64,000 nucleotides of DNA from Amoebophrya sp. A120 (GCA_905178155.1 CAJINV010000006.1:4513175-4577174), one strand, 5' to 3'; shown: positions 7,950-63,300, numbered from the stretch's first letter. Notes: generated by a model from the sequence alone, not told the origin. Numbers and translations are program-made.

Positions 7950-8091
7950 TATGAACTGCAAGAGTATCGTACTATGTATAAATGCAAGTCTTGCACTTTT
8001 ACAAATATTTTTCTTAATGTAAAATTTCTCATGCTGAGAATGAAAATTTGTAATGCATTTATACGATAATGCGATACTTTTGCAGTTCATA
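7950..8091. mobile_element. Introner, family A
   Basis: tatgaactgcaagagtatcg...cgatacttttgcagttcata; TSD AGAAC. Confidence 0.85.
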
Positions 8092-10052: not shown

Positions 10053-11075
10053 TTTTGTACTTCCATGAACTGACAGCAACGCCTGCGATTGATCTTTATT
10101 TATGGTCAAAACGGTGGTAGCAATAATACATTTGCAGGACTTGCTGGGGACTTGCAAAAAACTTGCGCAAGTCTAGCAATTTGCCCCATCCCGAAACGGC
10201 GAAAACACTTGCGCAGCGCCCCCTTCTCCGCCAATTGCAATGTCCTGGAAAAACTTGCGCGAACGACAGCGCGCGCGCAGCAAATTTCTGTGGAAAACGC
10301 TTGCGGCGACGGAGGACTGTGGCAATTTGAGAACTCCAAAAAAACTTGTGACTGCGCGCATTTTCGTGCGGTTCTTTCTTTTCGAAAACGCTTGCTGGGC
10401 TGCGTCGTTCACTGCGACTCAGCCCTCCGGAAAACACTGCCGGCCCTACCGCAGTCGGCGCTTTTTTGGCGCCTCGCTGACACGGTTTCTTGGCTTTGGC
10501 AGGGCCGTCAGTTCTCCGTTGTTTCGCCCATTTCGGAACCGCCTCCGTTTGCAAGGGCGCGCGTAGGCGTGGATGTGTCCCGATTCCTCGCGCGCTGGTA
10601 TGGTCGCCACAGGCTCTCCTCTCTGGCCCTTGCTTATTCTTCTTTCGACAGACCGACGAAGCTTTTGGCTTCAGCTACCACATGTCTCTTCGCAAATGCC
10701 CCGCCATCTGATAGGGAGAGCCCTTTGCCTGTGCCTGGGTTTGACTTCGGGGTCAGCTGTGCAATGGGAAAGCCCTCCGAGGGACAGGCGGCGAGCATGT
10801 GTCCCGAAGCTGCGCAGGATGTTGTCGCGGAGGCCTCTTCGCCCTGTATGAGTCATAGCGTGTTGCCTAATCAATATCATTCCATCCCGACGGCAGAGTG
10901 CGAGCCGCACCGGCCAAGTTGGCCCGCCAACGCTTGCCGCGCGAGATGAAGAATTTCGGTGGCGCCGGGGCTTCCGGCAGGCGAGAGCCCGCCGACCTCG
11001 CAGCCACTGCGCCGTCCTGTTTATGTTTTTGCACTTCCATGAACCGACAGCAACGCCCATGATTGATCTTTATTT
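10053..11075. mobile_element. 925-bp GC-rich insert flanked by a 49-bp imperfect direct repeat
   Basis: 10053-10101 and 11027-11075 match at 44/49 nt; composition changes abruptly between them. Confidence 0.65.
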
Positions 11076-35200: not shown

Positions 35201-38200
35201 GGGGCTTCGTTTCATAGTTGTTTTCCCGTAGGATTTTTGCATTACAAGTTTTCTCTCTCATGCAGCGAAATTTGTGTTGCTGAATTGGCTACAAATGTGT
35301 AACTGTAACACTTTTTTCGTGGGATAATAGACTACCGAAAGGTAGTACTGCCATGGGAGCTTCGTCGAGTAGCAGCAGTGTGGCAGATGATGCAAAGGTG
35401 GAAAAGACGCTGCTGTATAGGAGAAAGAATGACGATGATGAAGAAAACGGCGCTTCCGACATTTCGGAACAAGATGCCGATGGCATGGCGGCCGCAGTAG
35501 AGACAACTTCTGTGAGCAAAGACTTTCTTTTCCTGGAAGGTGATCATTTGATGACGGGGCCAGCGTCTTCCTCTGGAATTGCGTCGTCTTCCTCTATGTC
35601 CCCTTTTTCCAGCCTGATCCCCTCTGTAATTGGCAGCAAGGACAGCAGTTTGATGCCCAACAACTCCACCTCTGGATCAATCGCGATGGAGGTGAACTAC
35701 AGTGCGCCGGCCAGTCAACATGGTGCTGGTTCTGCGGCAATAGAAATATCTACGACTTCTCGATCCACATCAAAGGCAAGCAGCTGCGGTGGATCATTGT
35801 CAACCTCCCTGCGTCGAAGTGAACAGGTAGAAGTACAACCTGAGCAAGAACGCCCACCAGCGCGGTCGGGACCGGATTTTCTCTTCTACCAGGAAACCAC
35901 GCCAGCGATGTTTTTGAAAAACAAAAAGTCGCCAGCGGCTTCCACATACGGCGGTGCTTCATCATCAGGAGCTGTTGCTGTTTCTTCTTCTTCCTCTGCA
36001 ACACCTCTGGCGCCAGCAGTCCAACCTCTTCGCGACGGTATAGAAATTAGGCCGCAGGAACAGGTCGAGGAAGAGGGCTTTCAGGGTTTGCGCGCTCCCC
36101 CAACAAGTACTAGAACGCGACCACGGGTTAGTTTTAGTACTAACAGTCGAAAGAACTACGAGCTGTCAGCATCATGTTCAGGGACGCAGGCATCGCGGCG
36201 GGAGGACAGCTTTTTGTACTACGACGAGAATTCAGCCGAGGAACAAGATGTTGAGGACCGGGAAAGGAGCACAACTATCGTCCGAATTGATGTTGACGAT
36301 GAGGAAAGAAATCTCGAAGAGGACGACCACGACGAGAGCCTCAGCTCCGCCGCCGAGGAAAAAGCGGCGCAGAAAATCCAACATTTGATGAAGCGGCAAA
36401 CGGATTTGTTCGGGAAAAATACTAAAAACCAGTCTTCCTCCTCCACTTCCAGCAATAGAAACAGCAACTTCTTATTCGTGCAGAAACGGGATTTTGAGAA
36501 GCTCGAATCGGAGTTCATCACCAGTTCATCTGGTGGCAGTTTCTGTGGGGTGTCGTTCCTACAAGTAGAAAGAAACGACGACGATGAGGAAATGAGGGAC
36601 ATCACAGGAGTAGGAGATGAAAATCAACAGCAAGTGTCAACATCAGCCGCGACCACGAAGCGCTTAGCAGTGGTATTGAACAACATCCGACAGTTGAAAA
36701 AAGCGTTAATCCAGTCGAAGCACGACTCGAAGCTGAAGAAGCAACTCGAAGTCCGGTTGAAACTTTTACAAGAAAAGCAAGACAAGTACAAGAAGCAGAT
36801 TTTTGAATATCCTGAGTAAAAACGTACCCACACCAGAGTCAGGATGGGGATTTTGCAACACAAACCTAGGAGTTTTGTGAGTCACGCATGACAAGTTTCA
36901 GTCCGTAAGGTAGTGCAAGTTAGCAAGGAAAGCCGCATCACAAATCGATCTGCTGATCCTGTTTACAGCATTACAAGTTCCCAAACACGATTGAAAATGC
37001 CTGTCATGGGGTTGCGCATCACAAATGTTCCTGTCATGGCAAAGTCGCATGACAACTCTGGCGTGGGTACGTTTTTACTCAGGATATTGAATTTAAGAAT
37101 TTCATGGACGAAAAAATCGACCAGAAATTTAACCAGGAGGCGGAGCATATGAACTGCAAAAGCATCGCACTCGTAGTGATTGCAGATATGCATGACAAAC
37201 CTCCTTCCAAAGCTAAAACGGCATGACAAATTACATTTGTCATGCTAAGCTGATTTGTAATGCAATTTCTACTAGTACAAGCAGAAGCACGACTAGTACG
37301 GTGCTTTTGCAATCCATAGAGCATGAGAGACTGCAAAAGAAGTTTCTCCTCGCGAAAGCGGAGGAATTGCAGGAGTTTGAGAAGGAACTGCAGAAGAAAC
37401 AGAAAAAAATCATCGAGAACAAGCAGAAAGCGATGCTGGAAATCGAAAAGGAATCGAAGACGAAGGAAAAGTCATTAGCGAAAAAAAATCTCGAAACGCA
37501 TAAGGCGGAAATGCGGAATGAGATTTTGGAGCAGGAGGTGCAGAAAATGGAGAAGAGATTGTTTGAAGAGGAGGAGTTGCGGAAGAGAGACAGCGAAGAG
37601 AAACAAAAGGAGTTGGAAAAAGTGAAGGAGGATCTGGTAACCCAACAATCGTTAACCAACGCCTCGAAAAAGCAACTCGAGCAGATGACAAAAGATTTGC
37701 TGACCGCGGGGGGGACGAAGTTCCAGCACGACAAGATCGCGAACGAGAACAAGAATTTGAAACAGGAAGTGTCGCTGATGGAATCTCATTTGCAAGATGT
37801 GAAGAAAGACTTGGAAAAGGCGAAAAGACTTTTGAAGGAAGGGTTGCTGGTGAAAGAAGGTCAAAACGCCGGTGGGAGTCTGTCGTCAAAAAAATCGCTC
37901 CAAGAGCAAGTGCTGGACGAATTTGCACTGCTACAAGCGCACACCGACCAATATCGAAGAAGAAAACATTGCTAGTGTAACTTTGTGATGCGCAACATGC
38001 ATACTTCTTGCGGCTGTCATGCTAGAAATGCATTGCAAGGTCCACTCAAGCGCGTTTTCATGTACCATCTGCGCATGACAGGTTATTTTTGCTTTCATGC
38101 CAGACAGATTTGTAATGCTGTTCCTCCAAAAAAGTTGCACCTACACTCTTTTTTTCTTGGATAACCAACTGCACAGCTTCACCGACGATTTCGTGTTTGA

Positions 38201-39156
38201 TGTGGTGGTATGAAATGCAAATATGTCTGGGTCTCCTGGAAACTTGTAATGCTAAAAGTGAATCGTAGACGCACTGCAATGCGTAGCTACGCATGACAAA
38301 TTTTTTGGCTGCCATGTCTTACGTGTTCCGCCTGGCAAACTGCGTTTTTGCATGACAGGCAAGAGGGTCTTTTCGCGCCTATGCAAGACAGATTCTCGAG
38401 TCATGCCAGACAAGCATGACAAACGTGCACTCTTCCAGACCCAGACACTTTTGCAGTTCATAGGTGGTGAAGTCGCGACTGAAGCGGGAGACGAGGCAGC
38501 TGAAGATTATTGCAAGGAAAAATCCCCCCTCCCCATATCAAAACGGAATTTCTGATGCTGGATTTGTGTACACAAATCAGCTTTGTATTGCAGGAAGGCA
38601 GTGCGGCCAGATCCCCAGGCTAAGTAGGGGCGTATGGGTCTAGTTGTTCAGCATGACAAACGGCTCCCCTTTAGGCCCGACAGCGTGGCAAATCGCTTCC
38701 ATAATGGGGCGGAAGCTTCTGCCCTTGTCTTCTTGCAAGACAGATGTGATTTGTGGCCTCAAATCAGCAACACCAACACAAATCTTCGGGAGCATGCCCT
38801 TTCAATATGGGGAGGGGGGGCTTTTCATTTTGATAAAGATGCTCCAGGATTTGGTGGAATTAAGCGGGATCAACGAGGCGAGGAAATTGAAGATGCAAAC
38901 GACAACAAATAAAAATGACGGAACGACAACTGGAAGCAGGGGCGGTGAACTAGATCAGGATGGGAAAGACCGACCTCTTGGAGCTGTGGACGAAAGGGAC
39001 ACTTCTGGCACGAGGACCGGCCTTGAGCTGCAACAGACGCATGAAAAGACCTCCTCTTCTTTCTTTCCCAACGCAACAACCTTGTTCGAGCTGGATGCGT
39101 TTAATGAGGATTTTTTTCAGGTTTTGAAACAAACGAAACCGGCGATTGGGGCGTGA
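23214..39156 (+). CDS. Very large low-complexity/coiled-coil protein, 19 exons; no family recognised
   Basis: ATG 23214 to TGA 39156. Removing 18 TAT..ATA elements plus one TSD copy each gives a continuous frame with long E/K/Q/L heptad-like stretches and Ser-rich linkers. Confidence 0.85.
26789..27197. mobile_element. Introner, family A, with ~230-bp internal insert; stop-free in frame
   Basis: TSD GCTAT/GCCAT; element plus TSD = 414 nt, so the raw ORF reads through. Confidence 0.82.
27351..27620. mobile_element. Introner, family B
   Basis: TSD AGAAG; frame restored (IEK|QKF). Confidence 0.9.
27926..28899. mobile_element. Introner, family A, with ~800-bp nested GC-rich insert
   Basis: TSD GAAGA; insert ~27956-28760 lies between TATATA runs. 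Confidence 0.85.
30150..30310. mobile_element. Introner, family A
   Basis: TSD ACAAG/ACAAA. Confidence 0.88.
31251..31503. mobile_element. Introner, family B
   Basis: TSD GAGGA; similar to 1215-1473. Confidence 0.9.
31692..31942. mobile_element. Introner, family B, opposite orientation to 31251-31503
   Basis: TSD GATTT. Confidence 0.9.
32584..32920. mobile_element. Introner, family C
   Basis: TSD CAGAC. Confidence 0.88.
33017..33165. mobile_element. Introner, family A
   Basis: TSD GAGAG. Confidence 0.88.
33236..33497. mobile_element. Introner, family B
   Basis: TSD AAGAA. Confidence 0.88.
33566..33825. mobile_element. Introner, family B
   Basis: TSD GAAGT. Confidence 0.88.
34442..34752. 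mobile_element. Introner, family C
   Basis: TSD GTGGC. Confidence 0.9.
34811..35063. mobile_element. Introner, family B
   Basis: TSD ACTTC. Confidence 0.88.
35117..35326. mobile_element. Introner, family G
   Basis: tatcctgagaaaaaagcgttaca...tgtaacacttttttcgtgggata; TSD ATAGA. Confidence 0.88.
36808..37086. mobile_element. Introner, family D
   Basis: TSD TTGAA. Confidence 0.92.
37148..37318. mobile_element. Introner, family A
   Basis: TSD GAGCA. Confidence 0.85.
37952..38163. mobile_element. Introner, divergent TIR type
   Basis: tatcgaagaagaaaa...tttttttcttggata; TSD ACCAA. Confidence 0.8.
38209..38462. mobile_element. Introner, family B
   Basis: TSD GGTGG; empty site present in the duplicate at ~41065. 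Confidence 0.93.
38508..38835. mobile_element. Introner, family C
   Basis: TSD AAGAT; empty site present in the duplicate at ~41105. Confidence 0.93.
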
Positions 39157-40071
39157 TGATGATGATGATGAAAATTATGGGGATCATCATGTGGAGCACG
39201 ACCGCGGGGCAATTGCACAAAACGTGAGCTCTACAACTTGCACTAGTATAGCGGAACTTGTTCAAGATCAAGATGAACGTGATGAACTTGTGACTCTATC
39301 GTTCTGTAGGATTTATTTTCAATGTTACTTTTTACCAATAATCTCAGCTGCAGTAGTTCCTTGTTTTGGAACAGCAGTTGCGCTAGCAAGCCGTTCTTAA
39401 AGAAGCCATAATCGATAGTAGACATTGCCGAGCAGAGTCTGCAACTGCAAGGATCTTTTTTGTTGTAGAATTACAGTTAAATTTCAAAGTTAAAGTAGAC
39501 GACGAAGAGCACGAGGATGCCAGAAGAGGCTAAAACGCACAAGAGGATGCTAAAAATTATGTTTCGAGCGACTTTAGTTACGAAAGCGAGCCAGAAGTAC
39601 AAGTAGAGAAGTAACGATAGAACATGAACCGCAAAAGGCCAATGGCAAAATGCATGATGATGTCCTAGTGGGTCGACTACGTAGAAGTTGCTGTTCCGAT
39701 AATGATGATCATTTTTAACCACAAGCGATCATGGCAACTGGTGATACAGATCTGACAACTACTTCTGTTTACGTACTTAGCACTTTCTCGTCTCATCCAT
39801 CGCCTTTCGCGACACCACGCATGATTCACTTCTACAGCCGGCCAACTCGTTTTTGCTGCTTACATTTTTGACAAAATTACGAGCTGATGTACTATCGTGT
39901 AGAATTTATTCCAAACACCATATTAGACAACGGCCTAATTCGAATCTTTGGATGACTTATCGGCTTCTTGTCGCAGTAGAATAGCACCAGAGCAACCTTT
40001 TTTTCCTGTCTGTTTCCTGTCGTTTTAATATAGACTTCGAACAGAAATCTCTGCTCTCTTTTTCTCACAAA

Positions 40072-40408
40072 ATGGGCTACGTTCTTCGACGACACATGAG
40101 AGCCGCACACCTGAGCAAGAAAAATCCTGCGCCGCTCTATAATTGCTCGGTTGCCGGGTTCTTGATTGCAACTGCAGGTGCTTGTATTGCAGGAGCACTA
40201 GCAGCCTCGCATCACACGAGGACCTACACTGGCGAGAAAGCAGCAGAGGGAGCTACGAGGACCCACAGCCGCCTCCTTTCAGAAGAGCTACCCGGGGATG
40301 CGGACGCTGCGGCCGGTCCTGTCGTGTCCCCCGCCATGGTGGATCCACCTTTTCCAACAAGCGCGGAGAGTACAACATCTCCTACTTTCGCGGTAGGAAC
40401 AACGGGCG
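40072..40408 (+). pseudogene. Truncated 5' paralog of ORF 42574-45351
   Basis: MGYVLRRHMRAAHLSKK...ELPGDADAAAGPV matches MGYSFRRRMRAAHLSKK...ELPGDADAAAGPV, then breaks at the duplication junction. Confidence 0.8.
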
Positions 40409-41023
40409 ACCAACTGCACAGCTTCACCGACGATTTCGTGTTTTGCAGTGAGGCACTACAAGCAGAGCCTAAAGCTTGCGTGGGGGGGACGTTGGTGTAG
40501 GTGCTTAGCATAGCAGAGGCCTGCCAAGATGCCACCACAGCTCGTGGTGACACGAAATTCGCGACTTTTTTGGCTCCGTGTCACCGTCCCGTGTCACCAC
40601 TCGTGTCACCAACCCAAAAAGCTGCCCCGATGCCCTCCCACCCCCGCTTGATATCTGCCCAAATGGCCCCCAGATAGGCTTGGTGGCTGCCACAATGGAC
40701 CCCTGAATGCACGCGCAGCAGCCTGGAGTCAACATCTTCATGACGACTCCAGGCTGCATAACTGCATCTATTAAGGCTGTGGCAGAGGCTTTGCCTCTAC
40801 ATCAAAAGGTCAGGGCTAGCCGGCCCATCCTCCTCACGACTCTGACTACTTACAGTCAGAGAAGCGGCCTCCACTGGCTGAGAAAGGACAGGCGAAAGAA
40901 GCATCATCGCAGGCATTGAGACCTAGCACAAAGGCCGTCGCTGGGGGGGGTGCCAGAAATTCATATTGCTCGGCAGTCACCTGAAAGTCACGGACTGAAT
41001 TCCTAACGTCCATCCAAGCTGTA

Positions 41024-41665
41024 ACCAACTGCACAGCTTCACCGACGATTTCGTGTTTGATGTGGTGGTGAAGTCGCGACTGAAGCGAGAGACGAGGCAG
41101 CTGAAGATGCTCCAGGATTTGGTGGAATTGAGCGGGATAAACGAGGCGAGATATCAAATGTAAAAATGTCTGGGTCTGGAAAAATACGCGATTTGTCATG
41201 CAGCTTTTCCAAATGACCCATGAGGTCTGCAATGCAGGACCTGGCGTGACAGATTCTGTGCGAAGATCTCTCTCATGCCTATCTTGCATCAGAAACTCCC
41301 TCCCGACTTGGTCAAAAGTGGGCAACTTTTGGTAATCATGCAACACAGATTTTTGCATGCTTCAGATTTAGCATGACAAGTGGGATTCTTCCAGACATCC
41401 AGGGATTTTCGCATTTGATACGAGAAGTGTGAAAACCAAAACGACAACAAATAAGCACGGAACGACGACTGGAGATCAGGAGGACGGGATGAACAAAGAA
41501 CAAGTGGAAGACGCGGACCACACTTCTGGCACGACCCGTCTGGAACAACCGACCCGAATGGCGTCATCCTTTCTTCCCAACGCAACAACCTTGTTCGAGC
41601 TGGATGCGTTTAACGAGGATTTTTTTCAGGTTTTGAAACAAACGAAACCGGCGATTGGGGCGTGA
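41024..41665 (+). pseudogene. Duplicated 3' fragment of the coiled-coil gene with different intron content
   Basis: Same C-terminus PNATTLFELDAFNEDFFQVLKQTKPAIGA*; no upstream exons. Confidence 0.8.
41152..41420. mobile_element. Introner, family B, private to the duplicated copy
   Basis: TSD CGAGA; absent at the homologous site ~38880. Confidence 0.9.
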
Positions 41666-42573
41666 TGATGATGAAAATGGGGATCATGTGGAGCACCACG
41701 ACCGCGGGGCAATTGCAAAAAAGAACGTGAGCCCTTCATCTAATAAATTAGACTAGTATAGCGGAACTCCAAGAACTTGTGACCGTCGATCTGTAGGATT
41801 TTGGAATGTTACTTGTTTTTACCGATTATACTCTCCGCTGCAATAGTTCCTTGTTTTGGAACAGCAGTTGATGTGCTAGCAAGCCGTTCTTAAAGAAGCC
41901 ATAAAATAATCGATAGTAGACATTGCCGAGCAGGGTCTGCAACTGCAGCAAGGATCTTTTTGTAGAATTACAGTCAAAAGTCAAAGTAGACGACGACCAG
42001 CACGAGGATGCCAGAAGAAGCTAAAACGCACAAGAGGATGCTAAAAATGTTTCGAACGACTTTACTTACGAAAGCGAGCCAAAAGCAACGATAGAACATG
42101 AACCGCAAAAGGCCAATGGAAAAATGCATGATGATGTCCTAGTGGTTCGACTACGTAGAAGTAGCTGTTCCGATGTTGATGATCATTAGCCACAAGCGAT
42201 TATGACCGACAAGGCAACTGGTGATCCTGATCTGAAAACTACTCCTGTTTACTATACGTACTTAGCACTTTCTTGTCACATCTATCGCCTTTCGCGGCAC
42301 CACGCATGATTCACTTCTACAGCCGGTCAACTCGTTTTTTTCTGTTGCATTTTTGACAAAGTTACGAGCTGATGTATCGATCGTGTAAAATATTTCAAGC
42401 AACATATTGGACAACGGCATAATTCGAATCTTTGGATGACTTGTTGACTTCTTGTCGCAGTAGAATCAATAGCAAGAGCAACATAGACCACGAGCAGCCT
42501 TTTTTTCCTGTTTGTTTCCTGTTGTTTTAATATAGACGTCGAACAGAAATATCTGCTTTCTTTTTCTCACAAA

Positions 42574-45351
42574 ATGGGCTACTCTTTTCGACGACGCATG
42601 AGAGCCGCACACCTGAGCAAAAAACCTGCGCTCTACTGCTATGTTGTTGGATTCTTAATCTCAACTGGAGCTTGTATTGGAGGAGCACTAGGGGCCTCGG
42701 AGGACTACACCTACACGGGCACTAAGGTAGCGGGAACTCGTTCAGATGAGCTGCCCGGTGATGCAGACGCTGCGGCCGGTCCTGTTTTTTCCACTATGGA
42801 GCCACCCTTTCCAACAACAAGCGAGACGAGTACTACAACTATTTCCACTCCTTTCGGAGCGGTAGCAAGGCTTGGGTCCTCCTCAGGTTTTTCGGCTGCG
42901 TCTACTGCATTACCGGGCGCCGGGTCTTCACCTAATACCCCGGTTTTGCGGCGCGAAACCTCGATCACATCCACCGGGTCGTGGCAATATGAGGATGAGA
43001 GACATCTTCGGAGAGAAAATTTTTCCCTCGCAAGTGGAAGTGGAGGCGCAGCTGCAACTGCTGCTGCTACTGCCAGTCACCATGAGCAGCAACAAGAACA
43101 ACCGCAGGAACAACCCCACGATTCTCTGATCGAGGTGCTTCTCTGCAACTGGACTGGGTTAGTGGAAACGCCGTGCAGAAAATACGACGAGCCAAATAAC
43201 CCGGATCCGACTGTGCAAGATTTGAAAAATTGGCTGTTAAAGAACAGTGCGCCGGAAGAGTTCTTTCAACACCGTGTTCAACCTGCGTCGGCCGGCGTGG
43301 AAGGTAAAAATTGGCAACCGTCTTCTACCTCCGGAGCGTTGTGGTCAAAAAGACCTTTCTTCGACCCTGCAACCTGGCTTCCGTATTTCAACGGAACCGA
43401 GCCCGACATTCGGATCAGTAGTTCAAGCCGCCCGGAGCTCTACTGCTTGTCGGACGACGTGAAGGTGCAGGATCTTTACAAGGAGAAGCTGAAGCTGCGA
43501 TTGGAGACGCAAGCAAGACGTCCAGACCATTATGGCTATCAACACGGAGGGACGACGAGCGCAACCATGAAAAACATCAATGCGACCTTGTTACAACAAC
43601 CGGGAGCTCCTGAGCAAACAGTTGGTGGAACAAGGCAAAAAGGCAATTATGCGTCGGCAGCTCATCTTCTTCAACAGCGGCAAAAATTACAGAACGCAAC
43701 GTCTCAAGACCTGATGCTTGAGTACGACCTAGTGGAAAAAAAAGACGACGATATGCTACACTCACACCTATCCGGGTTTTTGAGATTTCTGCACGCCGAG
43801 GACGCGGTGGAGCGTGCAAATTTTATCCAGCGAGTGAAACAAGAGGCTGGGAAGATCTCCGGTGGAGGTGCTAGTACCGGTGAACCATTCGGTGGTGATC
43901 AGGATCACGCCGGACAAGGACAAGGAGTCGGCGTCGTGCCAGCAGCCTTAGCGGATAACCTGGTTTTCGGCGAGTCTCTGAAAGAAGACACTGGAGTGCA
44001 GCTCTGGGATTTTTACCAACGGGATTTGCGTGTAGATGAAGAAGCCGAGGATCTTGTTCTGGAGCGCCAGCGCACTAGAGACGCGGCCCATGATGTCGAG
44101 AAAGAGGATGGAAGAACGAGAAGGCGGCGCGTCTATACTGATTTCCGCGATAAGAAGGATACGTCAAAGCGGCGGACATCTGGTTCAACGCTGAGGACCC
44201 ACACCAGCACAAAACTGCCAACCAATAGGCGTCAAAAAGGCCGCGTTGCAATGAAAGACCGGAATCGGTCATCTCTTTTGAAAACGAGAACGCTACGTCT
44301 GCCGAGCGGCACTAAAGATGGCCTGGACGGGACTATAGCAAAGCTGGCTCGTAGTCGTAATTCCACGTCTTCGCACAAGAAGGGCGCTGTTGTTGTTCCA
44401 GACAAAATAAATGCAACCGACGTCGTACTAGCACCACCGGAACAACAACAAGCCGAAAAATCCATCCTGAAGATCCAGCGCGACCAAATTTTCACCCCCC
44501 AGCAAGACCCTACTTTGTACTTAACTTCGCCTTTCACGACGATGAGCGTGGGCCACGGGCTGGAGCCGGAGGTGGGGAACGCCGTGTTTCTCGCTGCGGC
44601 AAAGGAACTGCTTTTGTGGCAGATATTCGGGACAAAAGACGGTGGCCTGCTTTTAGGCGGCGGGGGCAGAGGGACAGCTAAAATGGGTCCTCGTGGAGCT
44701 GCTCCGAACCGTGACGCTGAAGATGATGTCACGCTTAGCACAGAGACCGTCTTCAACACTCCTGGCCGCAAGCTGTTTTCCGCGGCTCGAAATATGTTTG
44801 AGAATCAGGATGGAGGAGGCTCGAGAACTACATCTCGTGGCGGTGGAAATCCCAGTACAGATGACACTGCGGTGGAACAAGAAGGTGCTGTAGCTGACCA
44901 GCTTTCATCTGTGGTACACGCGGAGGACAGCGCACTCAAGCAAGTCCGCGCCACGCTGGAGTATCCGAGCAACGATGCTGATGTGGGCCAAGTGCAGCCA
45001 CATAAGGAACTTTCGAATGACGTGGTAAAGCTCGGCGACGACGTGTCGATTCGAGTGGAATATGAATTCGATAATACGAATAGCTTCTATCACGACCGGA
45101 TCTTCCAGACTTTCACTTTCCGGGACCACAGCAGAAGCCTGTCCTACGAACTAGAAGTCGTAGCAGTACAACAATCAGGAGAACCTTCAGACGTCGAGAG
45201 ACTGCGTCCAGGGGAAGTAGTCGACGCGGGTGCAGCTACACACGCGACAGGTACTACAGCGGGAGCCGCGTCATCATCGTCTTTACTTCCCTTGCCAATT
45301 TTTGTGCCCTGCTCGCACTGGAGAACGGAGGCTGTCACTGTGAGCATCTAG
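42574..45351 (+). CDS. Intronless 925-aa hypothetical protein with an N-terminal hydrophobic segment (signal or anchor)
   Basis: Uninterrupted ORF; ALYCYVVGFLISTGACIGGALGA near the N-terminus; the N-terminus is conserved in the paralog at 40072. Confidence 0.8.
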   Translation: MGYSFRRRMRAAHLSKKPALYCYVVGFLISTGACIGGALGASEDYTYTGTKVAGTRSDELPGDADAAAGPVFSTMEPPFPTTSETSTTTISTPFGAVARLGSSSGFSAASTALPGAGSSPNTPVLRRETSITSTGSWQYEDERHLRRENFSLASGSGGAAATAAATASHHEQQQEQPQEQPHDSLIEVLLCNWTGLVETPCRKYDEPNNPDPTVQDLKNWLLKNSAPEEFFQHRVQPASAGVEGKNWQPSSTSGALWSKRPFFDPATWLPYFNGTEPDIRISSSSRPELYCLSDDVKVQDLYKEKLKLRLETQARRPDHYGYQHGGTTSATMKNINATLLQQPGAPEQTVGGTRQKGNYASAAHLLQQRQKLQNATSQDLMLEYDLVEKKDDDMLHSHLSGFLRFLHAEDAVERANFIQRVKQEAGKISGGGASTGEPFGGDQDHAGQGQGVGVVPAALADNLVFGESLKEDTGVQLWDFYQRDLRVDEEAEDLVLERQRTRDAAHDVEKEDGRTRRRRVYTDFRDKKDTSKRRTSGSTLRTHTSTKLPTNRRQKGRVAMKDRNRSSLLKTRTLRLPSGTKDGLDGTIAKLARSRNSTSSHKKGAVVVPDKINATDVVLAPPEQQQAEKSILKIQRDQIFTPQQDPTLYLTSPFTTMSVGHGLEPEVGNAVFLAAAKELLLWQIFGTKDGGLLLGGGGRGTAKMGPRGAAPNRDAEDDVTLSTETVFNTPGRKLFSAARNMFENQDGGGSRTTSRGGGNPSTDDTAVEQEGAVADQLSSVVHAEDSALKQVRATLEYPSNDADVGQVQPHKELSNDVVKLGDDVSIRVEYEFDNTNSFYHDRIFQTFTFRDHSRSLSYELEVVAVQQSGEPSDVERLRPGEVVDAGAATHATGTTAGAASSSSLLPLPIFVPCSHWRTEAVTVSI

Positions 45352-46402: not shown

Positions 46403-49400
46403 ATGTCGACTGTCCGTGGAGGTGCAACATCCGGTTCATTTGTGCCGCGAAGGGACGACTACCCCCGCCACAAGAGCTGCCCGTGGTCCACCGCGCGGCC
46501 ATCATGCTTGTCGTTTTCATCTTCTCCTACCAGTTTCTTTGCTTTGACTTTGTTCACCGTCTACCTTCGCTCCGCTTTTCATGTTTTACCGGTAGCCGCC
46601 TTCGGTTGCTTTTCCGATTACAGCATGTCATGGTGTATATGCATTGCAAAAGTATCGTACTCGTATGAATGCATGACAAATTTCCTCAGCATGAGAGATA
46701 AAATTTGTAATGCGGATTTACCTTAAAAAGAAGATTTGTGATGCATGACAATGCCTACGAGTGCAGTGCGATACTTTTGCGCAGGATAGTGCAACAACCA
46801 CACAGAGGAGTCTTGCGTTCACGACTACACGTTTTCCGTTTCTCACTTCCAACGGAAACTGAACAAGTACTACCAGAAAAACCACCGACCACCGCTGCTC
46901 GAGGCGTATTTTTTGATAAAAACCCCGCAACCCTACCAAGCGGAGTTTTTGGATGCGGATTGCGCGCCGCCGTTGATCATGGCGCTGTTGCTCGTGTGCG
47001 AAGCGAGGATGGAGTACGACAGTGGACAAGCGGTGCAGTTGTTTGAATTGGCGATGAACTACTTGCAGAACCGGGTTTCACCAGAACAAGCGTACATTCT
47101 CACCAACACCGACACGTGGCCGTTTAAGAAAGCGGTTGCGAGAATTCAGACCATGATGACGGAGCTGGAACAGCGCAAATTGAAGATCGAGGAAAAACTC
47201 GCGGTGCAAAAACAACCAAGAATAAAGGTCGATTTCGTGATTTCCCACTGCAAAGAGCAAGATTTGAATTGGCTCGTCGAGGATTTGACCCCGATGCTTG
47301 TGACCGGGCAGTATCAAATGCAAATATGTCTGGGTCTGGTGGAAGGTTGGAACTTGTGATGCTAACTTTGGACTCTAAAAAAATCTGTATTGCGTGACCA
47401 GCAAGAGGAGTCTAGTTTGTGCTACGCGGGGAGGGCATTTGTCATGCGGAGTAGGCATCAGGAAGCCCGCTACAGATCTGTGATGCTAGGCCGTGCATTA
47501 CAGACATCCTGGGTCATGCAAAATATGCATGACAAACCCTGCAACATTCCAGACCCAGACGCTTTTGCATTTTATAGCCAGGCGAGGGAGACGATTCAAC
47601 CGAAGCTGCTCGTGTACGAAAAGTGTCACCAGGTGACGGATGTCGGGAAGGTTTTTGAGCAATGGAACAACTACCAGAAGAGCAAGGGAAATGTGCAGAA
47701 AATCGCAACAGAGAATCCGTTTGACCTTGATCCGAGCAGGAATCCGGTGCAAGGTAGTTACGAGATCGTCCCGACGCCTGACCCGTCCTTTGTTGTATCA
47801 AATGCAAATATGTCTGGGTCTGGAAGAATGTAAGTTTGTCATGCTTATCTTTCACGACTCCTAACTTTGTGATGCATAAGCAGGATGCTGAGAGTCTTTT
47901 GCCTGTCATGCAAAAACTACGCAGTTTGCCATGCAGAAAACGGAACACATAGCAGCTCAAGAACTTGTCATGCTTGGGTGCGTATTGCAGTGCTTCCACC
48001 ATTCCCAAACCAGCATCACAAGTTTCCAGACCCAGACATATTTGCAGTTGATATGTTGCCCGGGGAGACGAATGCTCGGCGTACTTGAAACACATCCGGA
48101 ATTCCTTCGGAGGAGGAGGAGGTTTTGCCCACGGTGACGAAATGAAGTCGAACACGTTTGCCGACTTTACGTTTTTTCTCCACTCGGACCCCTGGGACCA
48201 CATGCACAAGGAATTTATGAGAGTGGACAACTAGTATTTTTGCCACCTGAAGATGAAGTCCCCGTCATGTTGTGCGGAAGAGGATACTAAGACCTAGGCA
48301 CTTATCTAAAGGATCATCATGCACCAGGAGCTCGGCTCCCTGATGAAAACAAACCGAAACTCACGCCCGCGATTGTAGCTCTGGGAAAGATGAAAGTGAT
48401 GAACGAATTTGAAGAAAAACGTATCGCAAGAAAAAAGTGTTACAGTTACACATTGTGTTGCAGGCCAAGCATGACAGACAAGCTCTGCCATGCGGGATAT
48501 GCATAGGAGCCTCGTTTCATAGGTGTTTTCCCGGAGGATTTCTGCATTACAAGTTTTCTCTCTCATGCAGAGAAATTTGTGTTGCTGAATTCACTACAAA
48601 TGTTTAACTGTAACACTTTTTTCGGTGGATAAAACGGAACATCTTATTAGTACAGCAAGAAGCGGATTTGGAAAAGTTTGAATTGAAGTATAACCCGCTC
48701 AGGTGTTACAATCTCAAACGTTACAATAGAATCTAGAATTTGTGTTGCAAAATGCGCAACATCTGGCCTACTCCCACAGGAGCGCGCATGACAAGTTTCG
48801 GAGCTCCAAACCCCATGAGAATCTGCCGAAATTTGTATTGCGAAAAGCCCGATTCTCTGTTTGGTACTCATGCTGTTCATGCAACACAAATTTCACATTC
48901 TACTGTAACGTTTGAGATTTACTGTAATACGGATCACCGTGTCCCTGAAAACAAACCGAAACTCACGCCCGCGATTGTCTGGTAACCAAATGCGTGCGCG
49001 CGCGCGCGCAGAGGTGGGCGCGCGCGCTCTGCGCGCTTGCGATATTGCTTAGCAAACGCAGCGCGAAGGCAGTTGCCGTTACCATATAGGGCAACCGCCG
49101 GGAGGCGTGAAGGTCAGGGAAATGGCCAGAAATGAAGCGGGAGAAGGGAAAAAAAGCGGACCAGATGGGAAAATGGCCAGGAGGTCAAAAATGTCGCAAA
49201 AATGGCAGAAACCAAGCGGGAGAAGGTGAAAAAAGAGCATTTTTGCGGTTTGGCCCACTTGATATCTGAAAAAGAGACGGACTATTTTTTGCTCCGCCCG
49301 GTGGCCAGCTGCGTTGGAGAAGCAGGCCCGCGACCTGTCCGGAAGCCTTGGGCCGCTTCGTAACTGGAAAAAGTTGGAAAAAAATGACAAAAAATTGCTT

Positions 49401-52047
49401 CATAACGTGGGTGGAAGCAATCGTCGGATTTTGTCCAGATCACCCGGGCCACTTTGAAAATGAAAAAAGATGAGAAATTGCGCAAAAGCGCAATCCTTCC
49501 GCAGGCTTCAAAACTGCCAGTCAGATGCGGGCGGTAAAAATGTCCAGGTCGCCGGGGCCACTTGGAAAATAGAAAAAGACCACTTGGAAAATAGAAAAAA
49601 GACTTGGAAAATAGAAAAAGATGAGTTTTCTAAAGGCTCCCTGAAAACAAACCGAAACTCACGCCCGCGATTGATAGAAGTCGCAATACCATAACCCAAG
49701 AAATTTCTCATGCGTTCATGCTGTACAAAGCGCCGCTCTACCATGAATGACTCAGCAACACAAATTCGCCGCGCGCTTCCAGACCCAGACAAATTTTTGC
49801 ATTTGATTCGCGTTCAACCCCCACGACTGGACGCACTATCAAAAGGAAAAATCCCCCCTCCGCGTCCCCATATCAAAAATCGGAAATCTGTGTTGCAGAT
49901 TTGTGGTCACACATCAGCTTTCTCATGCTAGAAGGCAGAAGAGGCGGACTGTAGTGCTGGGTGGCTTGGGAAAGCCTTGCATCCTCAGCATGACATGAGG
50001 CAGCTGGAAGTGGGAAACAGCATGACAAATCGCCTGCAATTAAGGCCGCGACTGCGTCGCTTGGCCTTCTAGCAATACAAGGCGAAGACTTGTGTACTCA
50101 AATACAGCATCACAAGTTCCCCCTGAAAAAAACCGAAACTCACGCCCGCGATTCCAGTTCTGGAAACTTGTATTGCAGACACGGCTCCTGCTCCTCGCGG
50201 GCCTAAATATAAGATATAGCGTTTAAATTTCTAACTTGTACGACCAACGAAGGGGAATAATGCTAATGTGGCACGTCGAGTTCTTCTTGTCTTCTCTTCC
50301 ATACACTTCATGTCCGTGATTCTGTCCACCATCGCCGCAAAAACTTTCGACAGCGAGAAAAACGGATTCTTACACCTCAACGGCCCGCGACACGTCCGAA
50401 CGCTGACGCCCTGCCTCCAGGCGGTGTCCGAGAAGATTTTCGGTTTCCCAGTGAAAAACTCCGTCGGGCCGTACTGTTATTCGAAGTAAAAACATCCCCA
50501 CCCCAGAGTTGTCATGCAAATCTGCATGCCAAAAAAGTTTCTCTTGCGAAGCCCCATGACGAGAAGCTTTTTCTAGTCGTGTTTTGGGATTTGTGATGCT
50601 AGAAATAGCGTGATATGATAGATCTGTGATGCTGCTGAACTAGCTGAACAGGATCACACTACGAGGGCGAACTTGTCATGCGAAACAACCAAAGTTGGCT
50701 GATTTGTCTAGCAGATATTCCCATCTTCAACACTCTGGTACTATGGGGACGCTTTTACTCAGGATAACTGTTGTGCCCAGTTCATGGTGACGAAGGAGCG
50801 CATTCTGAAGAGGCCGCAAAGCTTCTACAGCAACATGCTAACCATGGTAAATGGGACCATGACTGAAGATTTGTGTACCAGTAGCAAAACCGCGCGGTCG
50901 ACGCATTGCTACGGAATGGAATTCCTCTGGCACCTGGTGTTTTCCGACTTATCTAACGAGGAACTCCAGTATCTGAACGAACAGGGATCTTTAGTGCAGC
51001 AGCAACTGCATATGACAGTGCACAACTCCCCCTGCTCCCCCTCATTTGTAATGCAAACTGTCAAGAAATCAAGTCGCTGCCTTGTGGCACTGTTTGCATG
51101 ACAAAGTCCGGAACAAACCCAAACAGCACTACATTAGAGCCATACATTTGTCATGCATAGACTTCATGCTTGCTCGCGTGTGTATTGCTGCTCATGCCAT
51201 ACAAATGAAGGGGAGCAGCGGGAGTTGTGCACTCTCATACTGCAAAAAAACGAGTTACAACTGACTGACGAAGTCGAGCAACAACAGGCGATGATTGACT
51301 CGGTGTTCGACCCCCCATTATGCATTGCAAATATGTCTAGGTATGGGAACTACTTGTGATGCTGAACAGTGGATGGTGAAAACACTTTCGAATAGTACAG
51401 CCAAGCATGACAAGTTTGCAGAACGCCTTCTGATGTTGCACAGTTCGCATGACAGCCTCCTGCAGCGTTTTTGTAAATGTAATGACAAAAAAGGCCGCTG
51501 GGGGTCATGCAATACAGAATCCACATGAATGTAAGACCAGCATTGCAAGCTGCAACTTTCCAGACCCAGACATAGTTGCACTTCATATCAATTACGCCCG
51601 GACGACTGGTCGTTGCCGATTCAGTTCCGGCTCAAGTTTGGGGTGGAGCACGCGAAAAAGGATTGGAATGACGTCGTTTTATCGCCCAACGTCCCGAAAA
51701 AAATCGTGACGAGACAAGACTGGAATGGGAACGAATTTGTCTACACACTCGGCGGAGAGCAGCACGTCGCGAGCTTGAGCGGGAAAGGCAACAGCAGTCC
51801 GGCGGGAAGCGCGAGTGGGATCCAGAATCAAGCGCAACTACAGCAACCACAACATCAAGCCTTGGGATCATCCGGATCTGCAGCTTCTTTGCCGCCAATA
51901 TCGGTTAGGCCAGTAAGTAGTGACACAACTACTAGCGCAGGAACTGGAACTACAGCTTCCGTTGGTGCTTCATCTTCTTTGAGTGCTGCGCAACAGCAAC
52001 TGAGAAACGCGAATGCCGCTGCTAGTATGTTGAACCAACAGTTCTGA
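46403..52047 (+). CDS. DUF3431-like protein, probably secreted or type II membrane; 8 exons
   Basis: Spliced motifs FVISHCKEQDLNWL, RGDECSAYLKHI, ADFTFFLHSDP, YCCAQFMVTKERILKRPQSFY and YGMEFLWHLVF match my recollection of the DUF3431 pattern. Hydrophobic N-terminal segment; 7 introners. Confidence 0.8.
46638..46788. mobile_element. Introner, family A
   Basis: TSD GTGTA/GTGCA. Confidence 0.87.
47312..47576. mobile_element. Introner, family B
   Basis: TSD GGCAG/GCCAG. Confidence 0.87.
47796..48053. mobile_element. Introner, family B
   Basis: TSD TGTTG. Confidence 0.9.
48334..50153 (+). repeat. Four ~35-bp direct repeats (ccctgaaaacaaaccgaaactcacgcccgcgatt) separated by unique spacers of ~566, ~657 and ~444 bp
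   Basis: Copies at 48334-48375, 48942-48977, 49635-49673 and 50121-50153. Confidence 0.92.
48422..48631. mobile_element. Introner, family G, inside a captured exon fragment
   Basis: TSD AAACG; similar to 35117-35326. Confidence 0.9.
50478..50766. mobile_element. Introner, family D
   Basis: TSD ACTGT; frame restored (PYC|CAQ). Confidence 0.88.
51011..51239. mobile_element. Introner, family F
   Basis: tatgacagtgcacaactccc...gggagttgtgcactctcata; TSD CTGCA. Confidence 0.9.
51319..51587. mobile_element. Introner, family B
   Basis: TSD CCCAT/TCAAT. Confidence 0.8.
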
Positions 52048-61900: not shown

Positions 61901-63300
61901 AGTATGTAGTGTTAGTTAAGGTAGATTATAGTTATTTTAGCTTGGATTAAATAGTTTATTTCCCGTCTTGGGGTTTGTAATGTAGTTGCTCCGCCCTTGT
62001 TGTTTCGGGCTTGTTCCGACCTTTTGCATGATCTGATGCTGTCTCGGTCGGTGGTGTGTGTGGTTTCATCTCTGCTCCCTCGGTTGCGGACGTTTTTGCA
62101 TTTGTCCGCTGCGACAGTTCGCCTTGTTTGCAGCTGCTCGCCATGAAAGCAACTACATTACATCTTGCCTCACTTTTTTGAGATGGGTTCTTTCGTATCT
62201 AGGACTGTGCCATAGTAGATGACTTTACCGCTTTTTTACTTTTCTTTTATCCCTCAGCGCTGGTGGGTCTGCCGGCAAAATTATCCCTACTCAGATAGCT
62301 ACAAAGCTCATTCCGCAGCCGTCCCAGGAGCTCTTGTGGCTGTCTCTCGGTAGTGATCGCTTTGCCCGTGCTTATTCCGCTCAGAGTTTGCTGGGTAGGT
62401 GGTTACCGTTTGTAGCTTTTATAAAGAAATGGGACGCCCTGCCCTTAGCCTTCCAACATGACAAATTCCGGAAGCCCAAAGAGTAATACACAAGGCGCAT
62501 AAATTTGCCATGCATAGGCTCCATGTGTGCTGGTGTCTGTATTGCTGCTCATGCCATACAAATGAGGGGAAGGGGGAGTTGTGCACTGTCATATGGATGG
62601 GTACCAGTTCGGCGATCTGCTCGTTACCTTCCCACAGTGCAAGGACGCGAGCTGCAACGCGTTGTTCCACCTCGCCGCGGAGTACGCGCACGAACGGGAC
62701 GAGTTCGCGTTCAATCCCCACGACTGGACGCACGTCCGGCTGTTTGGACCGAGGGACTTGGTCGCCATGTGGTGGCGGAGACATATGGAGGAGGAGAGGA
62801 GGCGGGAAAACGAAAATGAGGATGAGGACGACAACGACGATGAAAATGCTAGCGGTAATAAAGCGGAACAGGATGATGTTGAGGAAGACGATAACGATGC
62901 AGCGAGTACAACAAGTTCTAACCCGGCGAAAATCTCTGTTCGGGGGGAGGAGCAGCAACAGGAGGAGTCGTTACTTTCCTCCGTCGAGGGACTGGAAGAT
63001 GACGTGTACGAGGAAGGGAACAACCCTGCTGACGAGGCAGAGGCTGGCGTGGACGCGGAGACAGGAGAGGACGTCCTAGATGCAGGGCAACAAGATCTTC
63101 ATGACGACCAGTACGATGATGAACCAGGAGTAGAACCAGGAGTAGAACAACCCGAGGATCCGGAACTAGAAGGGGGAGTAGATGAAAACGAGCACCTTGC
63201 TGAGCCTGAAATCATGGAAGAGGAAGAGCATTTCACTGGGGACGGGGAAGGCTTTGAAGAGACCTACGATGCTGGGGGCGGGACTGTGGAGGATGAGTAA
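52970..63300 (+). CDS. Glycosyltransferase family 34-like protein (GMA12/MNN10 galactosyl/mannosyltransferase type) with acidic N- and C-terminal extensions; 22 exons
   Basis: Spliced motifs RIAIVS, NREVYARKHGY, HAKL, EFDWVVWLDCDSLIMN (DxD), DLLITEEGWGLSSANWMVRRSHW, GDQDAI, IPQRELNAY and YQFGDLLVTFPQC occur in GT34 order. 18 introners plus GT-AG introns at 55597-55776, 56484-56587 and 58181-60312. Start codon tentative. Confidence 0.87.
53028..53186. mobile_element. Introner, family A
   Basis: TSD AGGGC. Confidence 0.88.
53379..53657. mobile_element. Introner, family D, opposite orientation to 36808-37086
   Basis: TSD GCAAT. Confidence 0.88.
53709..53843. mobile_element. Introner, degenerate family A
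   Basis: TSD AAGAG. Confidence 0.82.
54225..54384. mobile_element. Introner, degenerate family A
   Basis: TSD CGAAA. Confidence 0.82.
54461..54635. mobile_element. Introner, family J
   Basis: tatgcaatacaaatttcccgtaca...tgtacgggaaatttattgtggata; TSD TTTCA. Confidence 0.82.
54929..55086. mobile_element. Introner, family A
   Basis: TSD TGATC. Confidence 0.87.
55163..55427. mobile_element. Introner, family B
   Basis: TSD GAGCA. Confidence 0.87.
55597..55776 (+). other. Canonical GT-AG intron
   Basis: gtactt...atcag; spliced frame YPPTSDIALK. Confidence 0.75.
55826..56158. mobile_element. Introner, family D, with internal fold-back
   Basis: TSD TACGC; spliced frame EVYARKHGY. Confidence 0.88.
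56208..56422. mobile_element. Introner, family H
   Basis: tatcgcacgaaaaaactgtttcactgtga...tcacagtgaaacagttttttcatacgata; TSD GCCCT/ACCCC. Confidence 0.85.
56484..56587 (+). other. Canonical GT-AG intron carrying introner-type internal motifs
   Basis: gtatag...ttccag; frame VNHY|IRSGEFDW. Confidence 0.78.
56636..56897. mobile_element. Introner, family B
   Basis: TSD ACAGT; frame LDCDS|LIMN. Confidence 0.9.
56978..57125. mobile_element. Introner, family A
   Basis: TSD ACTTT. Confidence 0.88.
57192..57347. mobile_element. Introner, family A
   Basis: TSD GAACG/AAACG. Confidence 0.87.
57526..57878. mobile_element. Introner, family B, with ~90-bp internal insertion
   Basis: TSD GGAAT/GGAAA. 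Confidence 0.85.
57965..58145. mobile_element. Introner, degenerate family A
   Basis: TSD AAGAA. Confidence 0.8.
58181..60312 (+). other. 2.1-kb canonical GT-AG intron containing a satellite
   Basis: ATG|gtatcg...ctgacag|GTT gives NWM|VRRSHW. Confidence 0.82.
58628..60270. repeat. GC-rich tandem satellite with ~103-bp unit, ~16 copies
   Basis: Exact 103-bp period in the core (ORF starts 58829, 58932, 59035 ... 59550); diverged ~104-bp units at the edges. Confidence 0.95.
60380..60533. mobile_element. Introner, family A
   Basis: TSD GATCC. Confidence 0.85.
60591..60821. mobile_element. Introner, family F
   Basis: TSD CAAAC. Confidence 0.88.
60961..61217. mobile_element. Introner, family E
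   Basis: TSD TGATC. Confidence 0.85.
61252..62593. mobile_element. Introner, family F, expanded by a ~1.1-kb internal insert
   Basis: tatgaaagtgcacaactcccc...ggggagttgtgcactgtcata; TSD TGGAT; frame MDVD|GYQF. Confidence 0.87.

What the first reader, a model, noticed from the sequence alone, without database searches (positions are those of the whole stretch)
48334..50153. Intronic repeat-spacer array that stores fragments of neighbouring genes in an alternative intron state
Seen: four copies of a ~35-bp repeat (ccctgaaaacaaaccgaaactcacgcccgcgatt) separate three unrelated spacers of ~566, ~657 and ~444 bp, all inside one intron of the DUF3431-like gene. Spacer 1 contains exon sequence of the coiled-coil gene ~17 kb upstream. 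Spacer 3 contains exon sequence of the GT34 gene ~13 kb downstream. Both are in the same orientation as the resident genes and end mid-introner at the next repeat. Inference: ~0.5-kb genomic fragments were integrated repeatedly at one site, re-duplicating the target each time. The layout recalls CRISPR adaptation or cassette accretion, but the spacers are over ten times longer and no cas or integrase gene is present. I do not know a described eukaryotic equivalent. It could be a repair by-product, or a source of RNA that targets introners.
Basis: partly seen in the sequence, partly recalled or inferred. Interest (0 to 1): 0.92.

Follow-up and report, generated by a model that had tools for sequence, protein, structure and literature searches.

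The report
Repeat-flanked captures of foreign neighbouring alleles
Inside one spliced intron of a marine parasite (Amoebophrya), a 34-base site recurs four times around ~0.5-kb inserts, two of which match neighbouring genes in a differently mutated version, and a second site nearby has the same build with a different repeat, so these are likely scars of repeated break repair that probably copied from a divergent mating partner's chromosome, not a CRISPR-like memory.

Summary
The array is there: four 33-37 nt repeats, three spacers (568, 662, 448 nt), inside a 2,093-nt intron that an RNA-type contig shows spliced. Read contigs bridge 3 of 8 junctions at single-copy depth. The host gene matches an Amoebophrya sp. 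A120 protein exactly. Spacers 1 and 3 hold exon pieces of genes 17 kb upstream and 13 kb downstream, with extra introners; all 5 differences are synonymous, so the donor was a working, diverged allele, not the resident gene. New: a second array at 38164-41058 uses a different 35-nt repeat, a piece of coding exon, around a 2.2-kb copy of a ~10%-diverged allele and a 580-nt insert. So the repeat is a long target-site duplication, not a dedicated repeat or transposon end. A third, 55-nt repeat pair shares 20 of 26 bases with the first repeat, hinting at a preferred cut site. Best reading (0.5): staggered breaks, repaired by copying from a divergent homolog, recut repeatedly. The nuclease is unidentified, no cas-like or guide-RNA evidence was found, and no genome-wide test was possible. 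New variant of templated insertion; interest 0.68.

The parts
48216..50308 (+). Host intron of the DUF3431 gene (2,093 nt): an old introner-type intron with decayed TAT..ATA ends and a 3/5 match between its 5-bp flanks; about 310 nt without the array
   Evidence: Spliced in RNA-type contig X4 record 17 and in protein P0001; boundaries
48338..48374 (+). Repeat R1 (37 nt, 3-nt insertion)
   Evidence: contigs 48028-48375 with 0 differences
48375..48942 (+). Spacer 1 (568 nt): 11-13 nt resembling the sequence after R4 (9/13), then exon of the gene at 30945-31032 in a diverged allele, with a complete introner (48422-48631, perfect 5-bp duplication) and a second introner (48689-48942) cut off just short of its end
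48943..48976 (+). Repeat R2 (34 nt)
48977..49638 (+). Spacer 2 (662 nt): piece of a multi-copy non-coding repeat family; source not traced
   Evidence: depth 785 and 2073 against about 30 and 42 for single-copy contigs; no close match in the window
49639..49672 (+). Repeat R3 (34 nt; shares 4 more nt on the left with R1)
49673..50120 (+). Spacer 3 (448 nt): 3' part of one introner, 30 nt of exon of the gene at 62704-62733 (49807-49836), and a second introner cut about 36 nt before its end
   Evidence: contigs 49644-49995 and 50089-50513
50121..50153 (+). Repeat R4 (33 nt, 1-nt deletion)
   Evidence: bridged on both sides with 0 differences
30945..31032 (+). Resident counterpart of spacer 1 exon; no introners here
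62704..62733 (+). Resident counterpart of spacer 3 exon (GT34-family gene); no introners here
38164..38198 (+). Second array, repeat T1: 35 nt of coding exon
38199..40408 (+). Second array, insert a (2.2 kb): one allele of the gene's 3' end, the intergenic region and the 5' start of the next gene, cut mid-exon; has two introners that the other allele lacks
40409..40443 (+). Second array, repeat T2 (identical to T1)
40444..41023 (+). Second array, insert b (580 nt): starts mid-introner, 91/98 identical to 32670-32766, with a 5-nt microhomology to the end of T2; remainder untraced
41024..41058 (+). Second array, repeat T3 (identical to T1)
41059..42850 (+). The other allele of the segment in insert a; has one introner (41152-41420) that a lacks and runs on into the complete next gene
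10047..11075 (+). Third case L4: 55-nt direct repeat (10047-10101, 11021-11075; 87% alike) around a 919-nt GC-rich insert; repeat shares 20/26 nt with R
2581..8354 (+). Possible fourth case L3: 37-nt direct repeat (2581-2617, 8319-8354) 5.7 kb apart; insert not shown to be a captured allele

Best explanation
The 34-nt repeat is a long duplication of a site, and two of its three inserts are pieces of a diverged, working allele of neighbouring genes; they likely arose when a staggered break at that site was repaired by copying from the paired chromosome of a divergent mating partner, and the regenerated site was probably cut again. Shown: repeat-insert-repeat build at two loci with different repeats, one of them plain coding exon; donors diverged about 8-16% where unconstrained yet synonymous-only in conserved exons; introner states differ in both directions; inserts hold unspliced introners and intergenic DNA. 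Inferred steps: (1) two nicks about 35 nt apart leave complementary 3' overhangs; (2) the left overhang primes synthesis on the partner chromosome, at the matching position (insert a; first 13 nt of spacer 1) or at a nearby microhomology (spacers 1, 3, insert b); (3) after 0.45-2.2 kb the new strand is released and end-joined to the right overhang, and fill-in doubles the site; (4) the intact site is cut again, adding units. The nuclease is unknown; the motif shared by R and L4 suggests a sequence preference. The product is most likely neutral and survives because the intron is still spliced.
For: Second array with a different 35-nt repeat in three identical copies. Removing the inserts and one repeat each restores an open frame there and a 310-nt intron at R. 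5 of 5 differences in spacer 1/3 exons are synonymous (P 0.001-0.005 if neutral with transition weighting), and 3 of 3 in the 127-nt conserved exons of a versus its twin; both twins keep open frames through many indels. No second copy of the host exons at 88% or more in the DNA contigs (depth 27-38 in X1, single contigs with 0 differences), which argues against a resident duplicate of the whole neighbourhood and against a mixed culture. 5-nt microhomology at T2-b. All four traced inserts lie on the strand of their resident counterpart. Amoebophrya expresses SPO11, DMC1, HOP2, MND1 and HAP2 in one spore type and A120 is suggested to be heterothallic (10.1101/2025.04.10.648098, passages); related cryptic species share hosts and seasons (PMC7018713, passages). 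43-nt 3' overhangs from paired nicks yield near full-length duplications (PMC8355091, passages); one-end synthesis with end-joining of the other end is an established route to templated insertions (PMC11724301, passages).
Against: No nuclease identified, and three hits at one site need one. T matches the R/L4 motif only at background level (score 9.5; the tenth-best score in 20 simulated windows was 8.1-10.7). R copies come in three indel variants while the captured exons show no decay, which fits a recent single origin poorly. Spacer 2, most of b and the L4 and L3 inserts are untraced. The allelic origin of b is weak: a non-allelic introner pair in this window is 190/210 alike. No partner strain was seen (1 of 498 candidates, 39% identity); k-mer data suggest little gene flow between ribotypes and no zygotes were seen. 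The second array, L3 and L4 have no read support, and 4 of 8 junctions of the first are unconfirmed. Protein searches for paralogs of the donor genes missed even the resident A120 proteins, so they exclude nothing.
Confidence: 0.5

Rival explanations
1. A non-LTR retrotransposon protein with a site-preferring endonuclease nicks the two strands about 35 nt apart and its reverse transcriptase copies whatever template is near (nascent unspliced RNA or DNA of the partner allele, or its own non-autonomous elements such as spacer 2 and the L4 insert).
For: Explains recutting, the R/L4 motif (20/26, P about 1e-4 after 1,200 comparisons), sense orientation and microhomology at the left junction. CRE and R4 elements make target duplications and R9 an 'exceptionally long' one (PMC3636483, passages and a reference title). 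A120 has non-LTR elements. It differs from the best reading mainly in naming the enzyme.
Against: No poly(A) or element tail at any insert end; insert a spans a stop codon, 0.9 kb of intergenic DNA and the next gene with introners unspliced; no retroelement coding sequence was identified in any insert (not searched against a transposon library).
Confidence: 0.18
2. Same repair scar, but the donor is an old diverged duplicate of this region that still lies elsewhere in the same genome, so no cross is needed.
For: Would give synonymous-only change and different introner states. A120 has old paralogs (P0003 for the host gene). Donor-gene paralogs could not be excluded.
Against: The host gene, which lies between the two donors, has no second copy at 88% or more in the DNA contigs; P0003 is only 60% identical in protein.
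Confidence: 0.12
3. R and the L4 repeat are terminal direct repeats of a low-copy mobile element family (R2-spacer 2-R3 and L4 being elements) that carries off flanking DNA.
For: R and L4 share a motif and both flank non-coding inserts; spacer 2 is multi-copy.
Against: Does not explain the second array, whose repeat is coding exon. An RNA-type contig of the spacer 2 family begins at 48978, two bases after R2, not inside it (X4 record 19). Spacer 2 and the L4 insert are unrelated. Rough depth gives R about 6-27 copies against 27-49 for spacer 2 (depth is a poor copy count).
Confidence: 0.1
4. A dedicated CRISPR-like acquisition system stores foreign-allele or introner DNA between repeats and uses it as guide RNA.
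For: n+1 repeats around n spacers, a degenerate last repeat, repeat length 34-35 nt, spacers rich in introner DNA, transcribed as part of an intron.
Against: The repeat differs between arrays and one is coding exon; spacers range 448-2,210 nt; no Rfam match (3 weak hits, none at the repeat); no integrase gene was identified nearby; no match in viral or metagenome contigs.
Confidence: 0.05
5. Assembly or library artefact: adapter-joined or haplotype-mixed pieces.
For: 4 of 8 junctions and the whole second array are unconfirmed; X1 and X2 are one sample and may be the source of the assembly.
Against: 3 junctions bridged with 0 differences at single-copy depth in both runs; the R1 and R4 indels are in the contigs; host exons show one haplotype.
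Confidence: 0.05

Closest known systems
Templated insertions at double-strand breaks (yeast dna2/rad27/RPA mutants, cancer genomes; PMC11724301, passages)
   Same: Copy-paste of local or distant fragments, several per break, short microhomology, one end priming synthesis and the other end-joined.
   Different: The passages read show no 35-nt target duplication between fragments, no repeated use of one site, and no donor from a diverged allele.
Tandem duplications at paired nicks with 3' overhangs (PMC8355091, passages)
   Same: A 43-nt staggered break is filled in and duplicated near full length.
   Different: Engineered nicks; no 0.5-2 kb insert between the copies in the passages read.
SPO11 double-cut mutagenesis (10.1101/2020.06.23.168138 and 10.1101/2019.12.18.881268, passages)
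   Same: Meiotic origin, inter-homolog events, inserts of 15-709 bp from other hotspots; double-cut ladder of about 33, 43, 53 nt is close to the repeat lengths here (33-37, 35, 37, 55).
   Different: Described inserts sit in deletions, local ones are inverted, and none is flanked by a duplicated site. The length match rests on four values and is only a lead.
Site-specific non-LTR retrotransposons with long target duplications (CRE, R4, R9; PMC3636483, passages; CRE1 29 bp and SLACS 49 bp are recalled)
   Same: Staggered nicks far apart at a preferred sequence; the site is regenerated.
   Different: They insert their own element; here the inserts are host alleles with no element tail.
CRISPR spacer acquisition (recalled)
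   Same: Repeat duplicated at each insertion; degenerate terminal repeat; similar repeat length.
   Different: Spacers 10-60 times longer and of uneven length, repeat not shared between arrays, no cas genes or guide RNA shown.
Amoebophrya introner elements (PMC7789003, section 10 and passages; PMC12130899, passages)
   Same: The TAT..ATA inverted-repeat introns with 5-bp duplications in the window (56 found by a simple rule), the host intron among them in decayed form.
   Different: Introners are markers and passengers here; their 5-bp duplication is not the 35-nt one.

Membership tests
CRISPR array | One conserved repeat shared by arrays | tested here: not met
   Second array uses an unrelated exon 35-mer
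CRISPR array | Short spacers of even length (about 20-70 nt; recalled) | tested here: not met
   568, 662, 448, 2,210 and 580 nt
CRISPR array | Cas1-Cas2 or related integrase in the genome | not testable with these tools
   No whole genome available; the window's genes were not all annotated
CRISPR array | Processing into repeat-bounded guide RNAs | not testable with these tools
   No small-RNA data; no Rfam match at the repeat
Templated insertion at a DNA break | Insert copied from elsewhere with the locus of origin retained | tested here: met
   Resident genes are intact at 30945-31032 and 62704-62733, though the copy came from another allele
Templated insertion at a DNA break | Short microhomology at junctions | tested here: inconclusive
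   5 nt at T2-b, about 3-4 nt inside spacer 1; other donors unavailable
Non-LTR retrotransposon insertion | Target-site duplication | tested here: met
   33-37 and 35 nt repeats
Non-LTR retrotransposon insertion | RNA hallmarks: poly(A) or repeat tail, loss of introns | tested here: not met
   Insert ends lack tails; introners and intergenic DNA retained
Helitron or Pack-type gene capture | Captured pieces enclosed by element termini (TC..CTRR with hairpin, or inverted repeats with short duplication; recalled) | tested here: not met
   Inserts are bounded by direct repeats of target sequence and end inside introners
Meiotic SPO11 double-cut event | Breakpoints at SPO11 hotspots, 10-nt length ladder | not testable with these tools
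   No hotspot map; four repeat lengths are compatible with the ladder but too few
Amoebophrya introner (host intron) | Terminal inverted repeats plus 3-5 nt direct repeat, spliced | tested here: met
   Decayed ends (16/17 to a window family), 3/5 flank match, spliced

The most novel reading that the evidence does not exclude
Amoebophrya has a site-preferring nicking activity that, in crosses between diverged lineages, repeatedly opens 35-55 nt staggered breaks and fills them with 0.5-2 kb copies of the partner's nearby DNA, building polarised repeat-spacer arrays across the genome. The arrays would be a dated record of past matings, and a route by which introners, repeats and new gene ends cross between cryptic species without ordinary crossing-over.
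Probability: 0.25. Interest if true: 0.9.

Novelty: new variant of a known kind. Interest (0 to 1): 0.68.

Why it matters
If the donor was a mate's chromosome, this is genomic evidence of sex or hybridisation between lineages about 10% apart in a parasite where zygotes have not been seen and gene flow between cryptic species is thought low. The captured pieces preserve the intron state of another lineage, so rates of introner gain can be read from one genome: five of the sites compared in spacers 1 and 3 and locus 2 carry an introner in one allele only at complete or partial copies (four in the spacers, plus three at locus 2, seven in all). At locus 2 the event swapped the 3' end of a gene. 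Two to four such structures in 64 kb suggest a common, unnoticed mutational process that is directly testable on existing genomes and strain data.

Tried and rejected
Repeat in public collections: 0 matches in viral contigs and 0 in metagenome contigs; uninformative for a eukaryote. Rfam on 48200-50320: 3 weak hits, none credible. No whole genome was available, so no genome-wide scan. Wild alleles of the spacer 1 donor: 1 of 498 candidates, 39% identity, irrelevant. Paralog searches: 0 of 91 candidates for the spacer 1 donor, 3 of 3 for the GT34 exon, none from A120; both missed the resident protein, so weak. No RNA holder listed on record; raw RNA run X14 laid only 77 reads on introner ends and none on host exons, so it says nothing on expression. 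Considered from recall and dropped: sequencing adapters, dinoflagellate spliced leader, telomere repeat (A120 motifs differ), loxP-type symmetric site (no arm symmetry by eye). Spacer 2 source at the window's end: only a weak, about 60% local similarity. L3 insert as captured allele: the match at 14.9-15.5 kb is an old paralog, 29-36% in protein. Left out of the count of repeat pairs: weak pairs under 40 bits (964/3099, 17792/19717, two beside the satellite), simple repeats at 28.2-28.7 kb and head-to-tail duplications. Earlier scan notes: nothing in 5 look-ups. Print: no description of such arrays in the listings, in the passages read of PMC7789003, or in its one supplement held as text (0 hits for 5 terms); most subscription papers and preprint supplements are not covered.


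Full report
Setting. The window is a eukaryotic genome full of introns with TAT..ATA inverted ends and 5-bp flanking duplications (56 by a simple rule), the introner type described for Amoebophrya (PMC7789003, section 10 and passages). One exon of the host gene is 100% identical to a protein that NCBI names Amoebophrya sp. A120 (P0001) and carries DUF3431. No whole genome was available, so all genome-wide statements below are indirect.

Four repeat copies and no others lie in the window: R1 48338-48374, R2 48943-48976, R3 49639-49672, R4 50121-50153, with spacers of 568, 662 and 448 nt. They sit in a 2,093-nt intron (48216-50308) that an RNA-type contig skips precisely while matching all exons with 0 differences (X4 record 17); P0001 reads through the same junction. 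Contigs of two DNA runs of one sample bridge 3 of 8 junctions by the tool's 31-letter rule, with 0 differences and at depth 27-43, the same as single-copy exons; a fourth (R3-S3) is covered with 29 letters on the repeat side; four are not among the 24 pieces listed. The R1 insertion and R4 deletion are in the contigs. This rules out an adapter and makes a chimera unlikely for the two ends, but these runs may be the source of the assembly, and the middle of the array is unverified. Depth arithmetic on the bin that holds R3 gives roughly 6 to 27 copies of the repeat (the tool warns that depth is no copy number), so it is not the end of an element with hundreds of copies. Spacer 2 itself belongs to a multi-copy family (27x and 49x).

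The spacers are not copies of the resident genes. Spacer 1 holds 87 nt of exon of the gene at 30945-31032 with 4 differences and spacer 3 holds 30 nt of the gene at 62704-62733 with 1; all 5 are synonymous. With 16-34% of possible changes synonymous, depending on transition weight, 5 of 5 has P 0.0001-0.005. The spacers carry four introners, complete or cut, at sites where the residents have one copy of the 5-bp target. So the donor was a working allele that had diverged and gained its own introners, and it was captured recently enough not to have decayed.

A second array changes the reading. A self-comparison of the window outside introners found a different 35-nt sequence in three identical copies at 38164, 40409 and 41024. 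It is coding exon, so it cannot be an inserted element. Between copies 1 and 2 lies a 2.2-kb twin of the sequence after copy 3: 10% substitutions overall, 7.5% in the intergenic part and 13-16% in fast-changing coding parts, with many indels, yet 3 of 3 differences in 127 nt of conserved exon are synonymous and both frames stay open. One twin has two introners that the other lacks, and the other has one. Between copies 2 and 3 lies a 580-nt piece that starts mid-introner, 91/98 identical to an introner 7.8 kb upstream against 64-70% for the other family members tested, joined by a 5-nt microhomology. That assignment is soft, because a non-allelic introner pair in the window is 190/210 alike. 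Two more repeat pairs exist: a 55-nt pair around 919 nt (L4, 10047/11021) and a 37-nt pair 5.7 kb apart (L3). In 30 simulated windows only one repeated 20-mer appeared in all. L4 shares 20 of 26 nt with R; no other non-R position of the window exceeds 17 (P about 1e-4 after 1,200 comparisons). The exon repeat T fits that motif only at the level of the tenth-best background site, and L3 does not rank. None of these other loci was checked against reads.

Where was the donor? If a diverged duplicate of the neighbourhood lay elsewhere in this genome, its host-gene exons should have laid at 88% or more; exon bins show single contigs with 0 differences at depth 27-38 in X1 and 41-51 in X2, with one empty bin in X2. 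That favours a chromosome that is no longer in the cell, such as a mate's homolog. It does not exclude paralogs of the two donor genes alone, and the protein searches were too weak to help. Amoebophrya has a spore type that expresses SPO11, DMC1, HOP2, MND1 and HAP2, no zygotes were seen, and heterothally was proposed (10.1101/2025.04.10.648098, passages). Eight cryptic species co-occur, several on the same hosts, with low gene flow if any (PMC7018713, passages).

Mechanism. Left repeat boundaries are sharp (0 to 4 nt) and right boundaries pass into the insert after 0 to 13 further nt (the 13 nt after R1 match those after R4 at 9, P about 0.016 after 12 comparisons). I infer two nicks about 35 nt apart giving 3' overhangs; the left overhang primes synthesis on the partner chromosome at the matching position or at a nearby microhomology; the new strand is released after 0.45-2.2 kb and joined to the right overhang; fill-in doubles the site, which can be cut again. 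Each step has a precedent: duplication of 43-nt 3' overhangs (PMC8355091, passages), one-ended templated insertion (PMC11724301, passages), inter-homolog and insertional events at meiotic breaks (10.1101/2020.06.23.168138, passages). The combination and the repeated use of one site have none in what I read. DNA is favoured over RNA as template because insert a spans a stop codon, intergenic DNA and the next gene with introners unspliced. The nuclease is the gap. A site-preferring non-LTR endonuclease and SPO11, whose double cuts run 33, 43, 53 nt, are the two leads; the first explains recutting better and is scored as the main rival. Against a simple recent origin, R occurs in three indel variants while the captured exons are undecayed.

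Verdict. Real; works like templated-insertion repair with a long target duplication; resembles CRISPR adaptation only in outline and fails the membership features that could be tested. No function is shown, and the array is probably tolerated because the intron is spliced. I found no description in the ten paper searches (listings only, apart from the nine papers whose passages are cited), in one supplement, or in earlier scan notes. New variant of a known kind. Interest 0.68, because it is odd, recurs in one window, and offers a direct test for crosses and for introner gain in Amoebophrya.

Noticed in passing
window 40072-40460: The cut-off 5' piece of the next gene in insert a runs in frame into repeat T2 and on into insert b, giving a chimeric open frame of about 140 codons.
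   Followed up: no
window 49092-49338: The same 247-nt spacer 2 contig has about 27x single-copy depth in one run and 49x in another run of the same sample; library bias or a non-chromosomal family.
   Followed up: no
window 48422-48631 and 35117-35326: The complete introner in spacer 1 is 190/210 identical to an introner at another position of the same resident gene; possible local hopping.
   Followed up: partly
window 7349-7626: Perfect head-to-tail duplication with a 138-nt period; another of 27 nt at 61326-61380.
   Followed up: no
window 58646-60193: GC-rich satellite of about 15 units of 103-104 nt.
   Followed up: no
window 5347-6220: 874-nt GC-rich element with about 80-nt terminal inverted repeats, MITE-like, inside the L3 interval.
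   Followed up: no
window 3707-4411: Intronless frame with one internal stop, 29-36% identical in protein to an introner-bearing gene at 14.9-15.5 kb.
   Followed up: partly
window 18133-18411 and 36808-37086: Two 279-nt introners 98% identical, a very recent gain.
   Followed up: no
window 14454-14875: A 422-nt introner swollen by a nested palindromic element.
   Followed up: no
window 48943-48976, minus strand: Read on the minus strand the repeat contains a 22-nt stretch that begins GT and ends AG with a pyrimidine run, like a tiny canonical intron; probably chance.
   Followed up: no
window 63690-63830, minus strand: GC-rich repeat-like sequence at the window's end with weak similarity to the 3' half of spacer 2.
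   Followed up: partly
proteins P0001-P0005: The host gene is a diverged duplicate: A120 has a second DUF3431 gene (P0003, 60% identical) that resembles the A25 protein more and lacks an insertion shared by P0001, P0004 and P0005.
   Followed up: no
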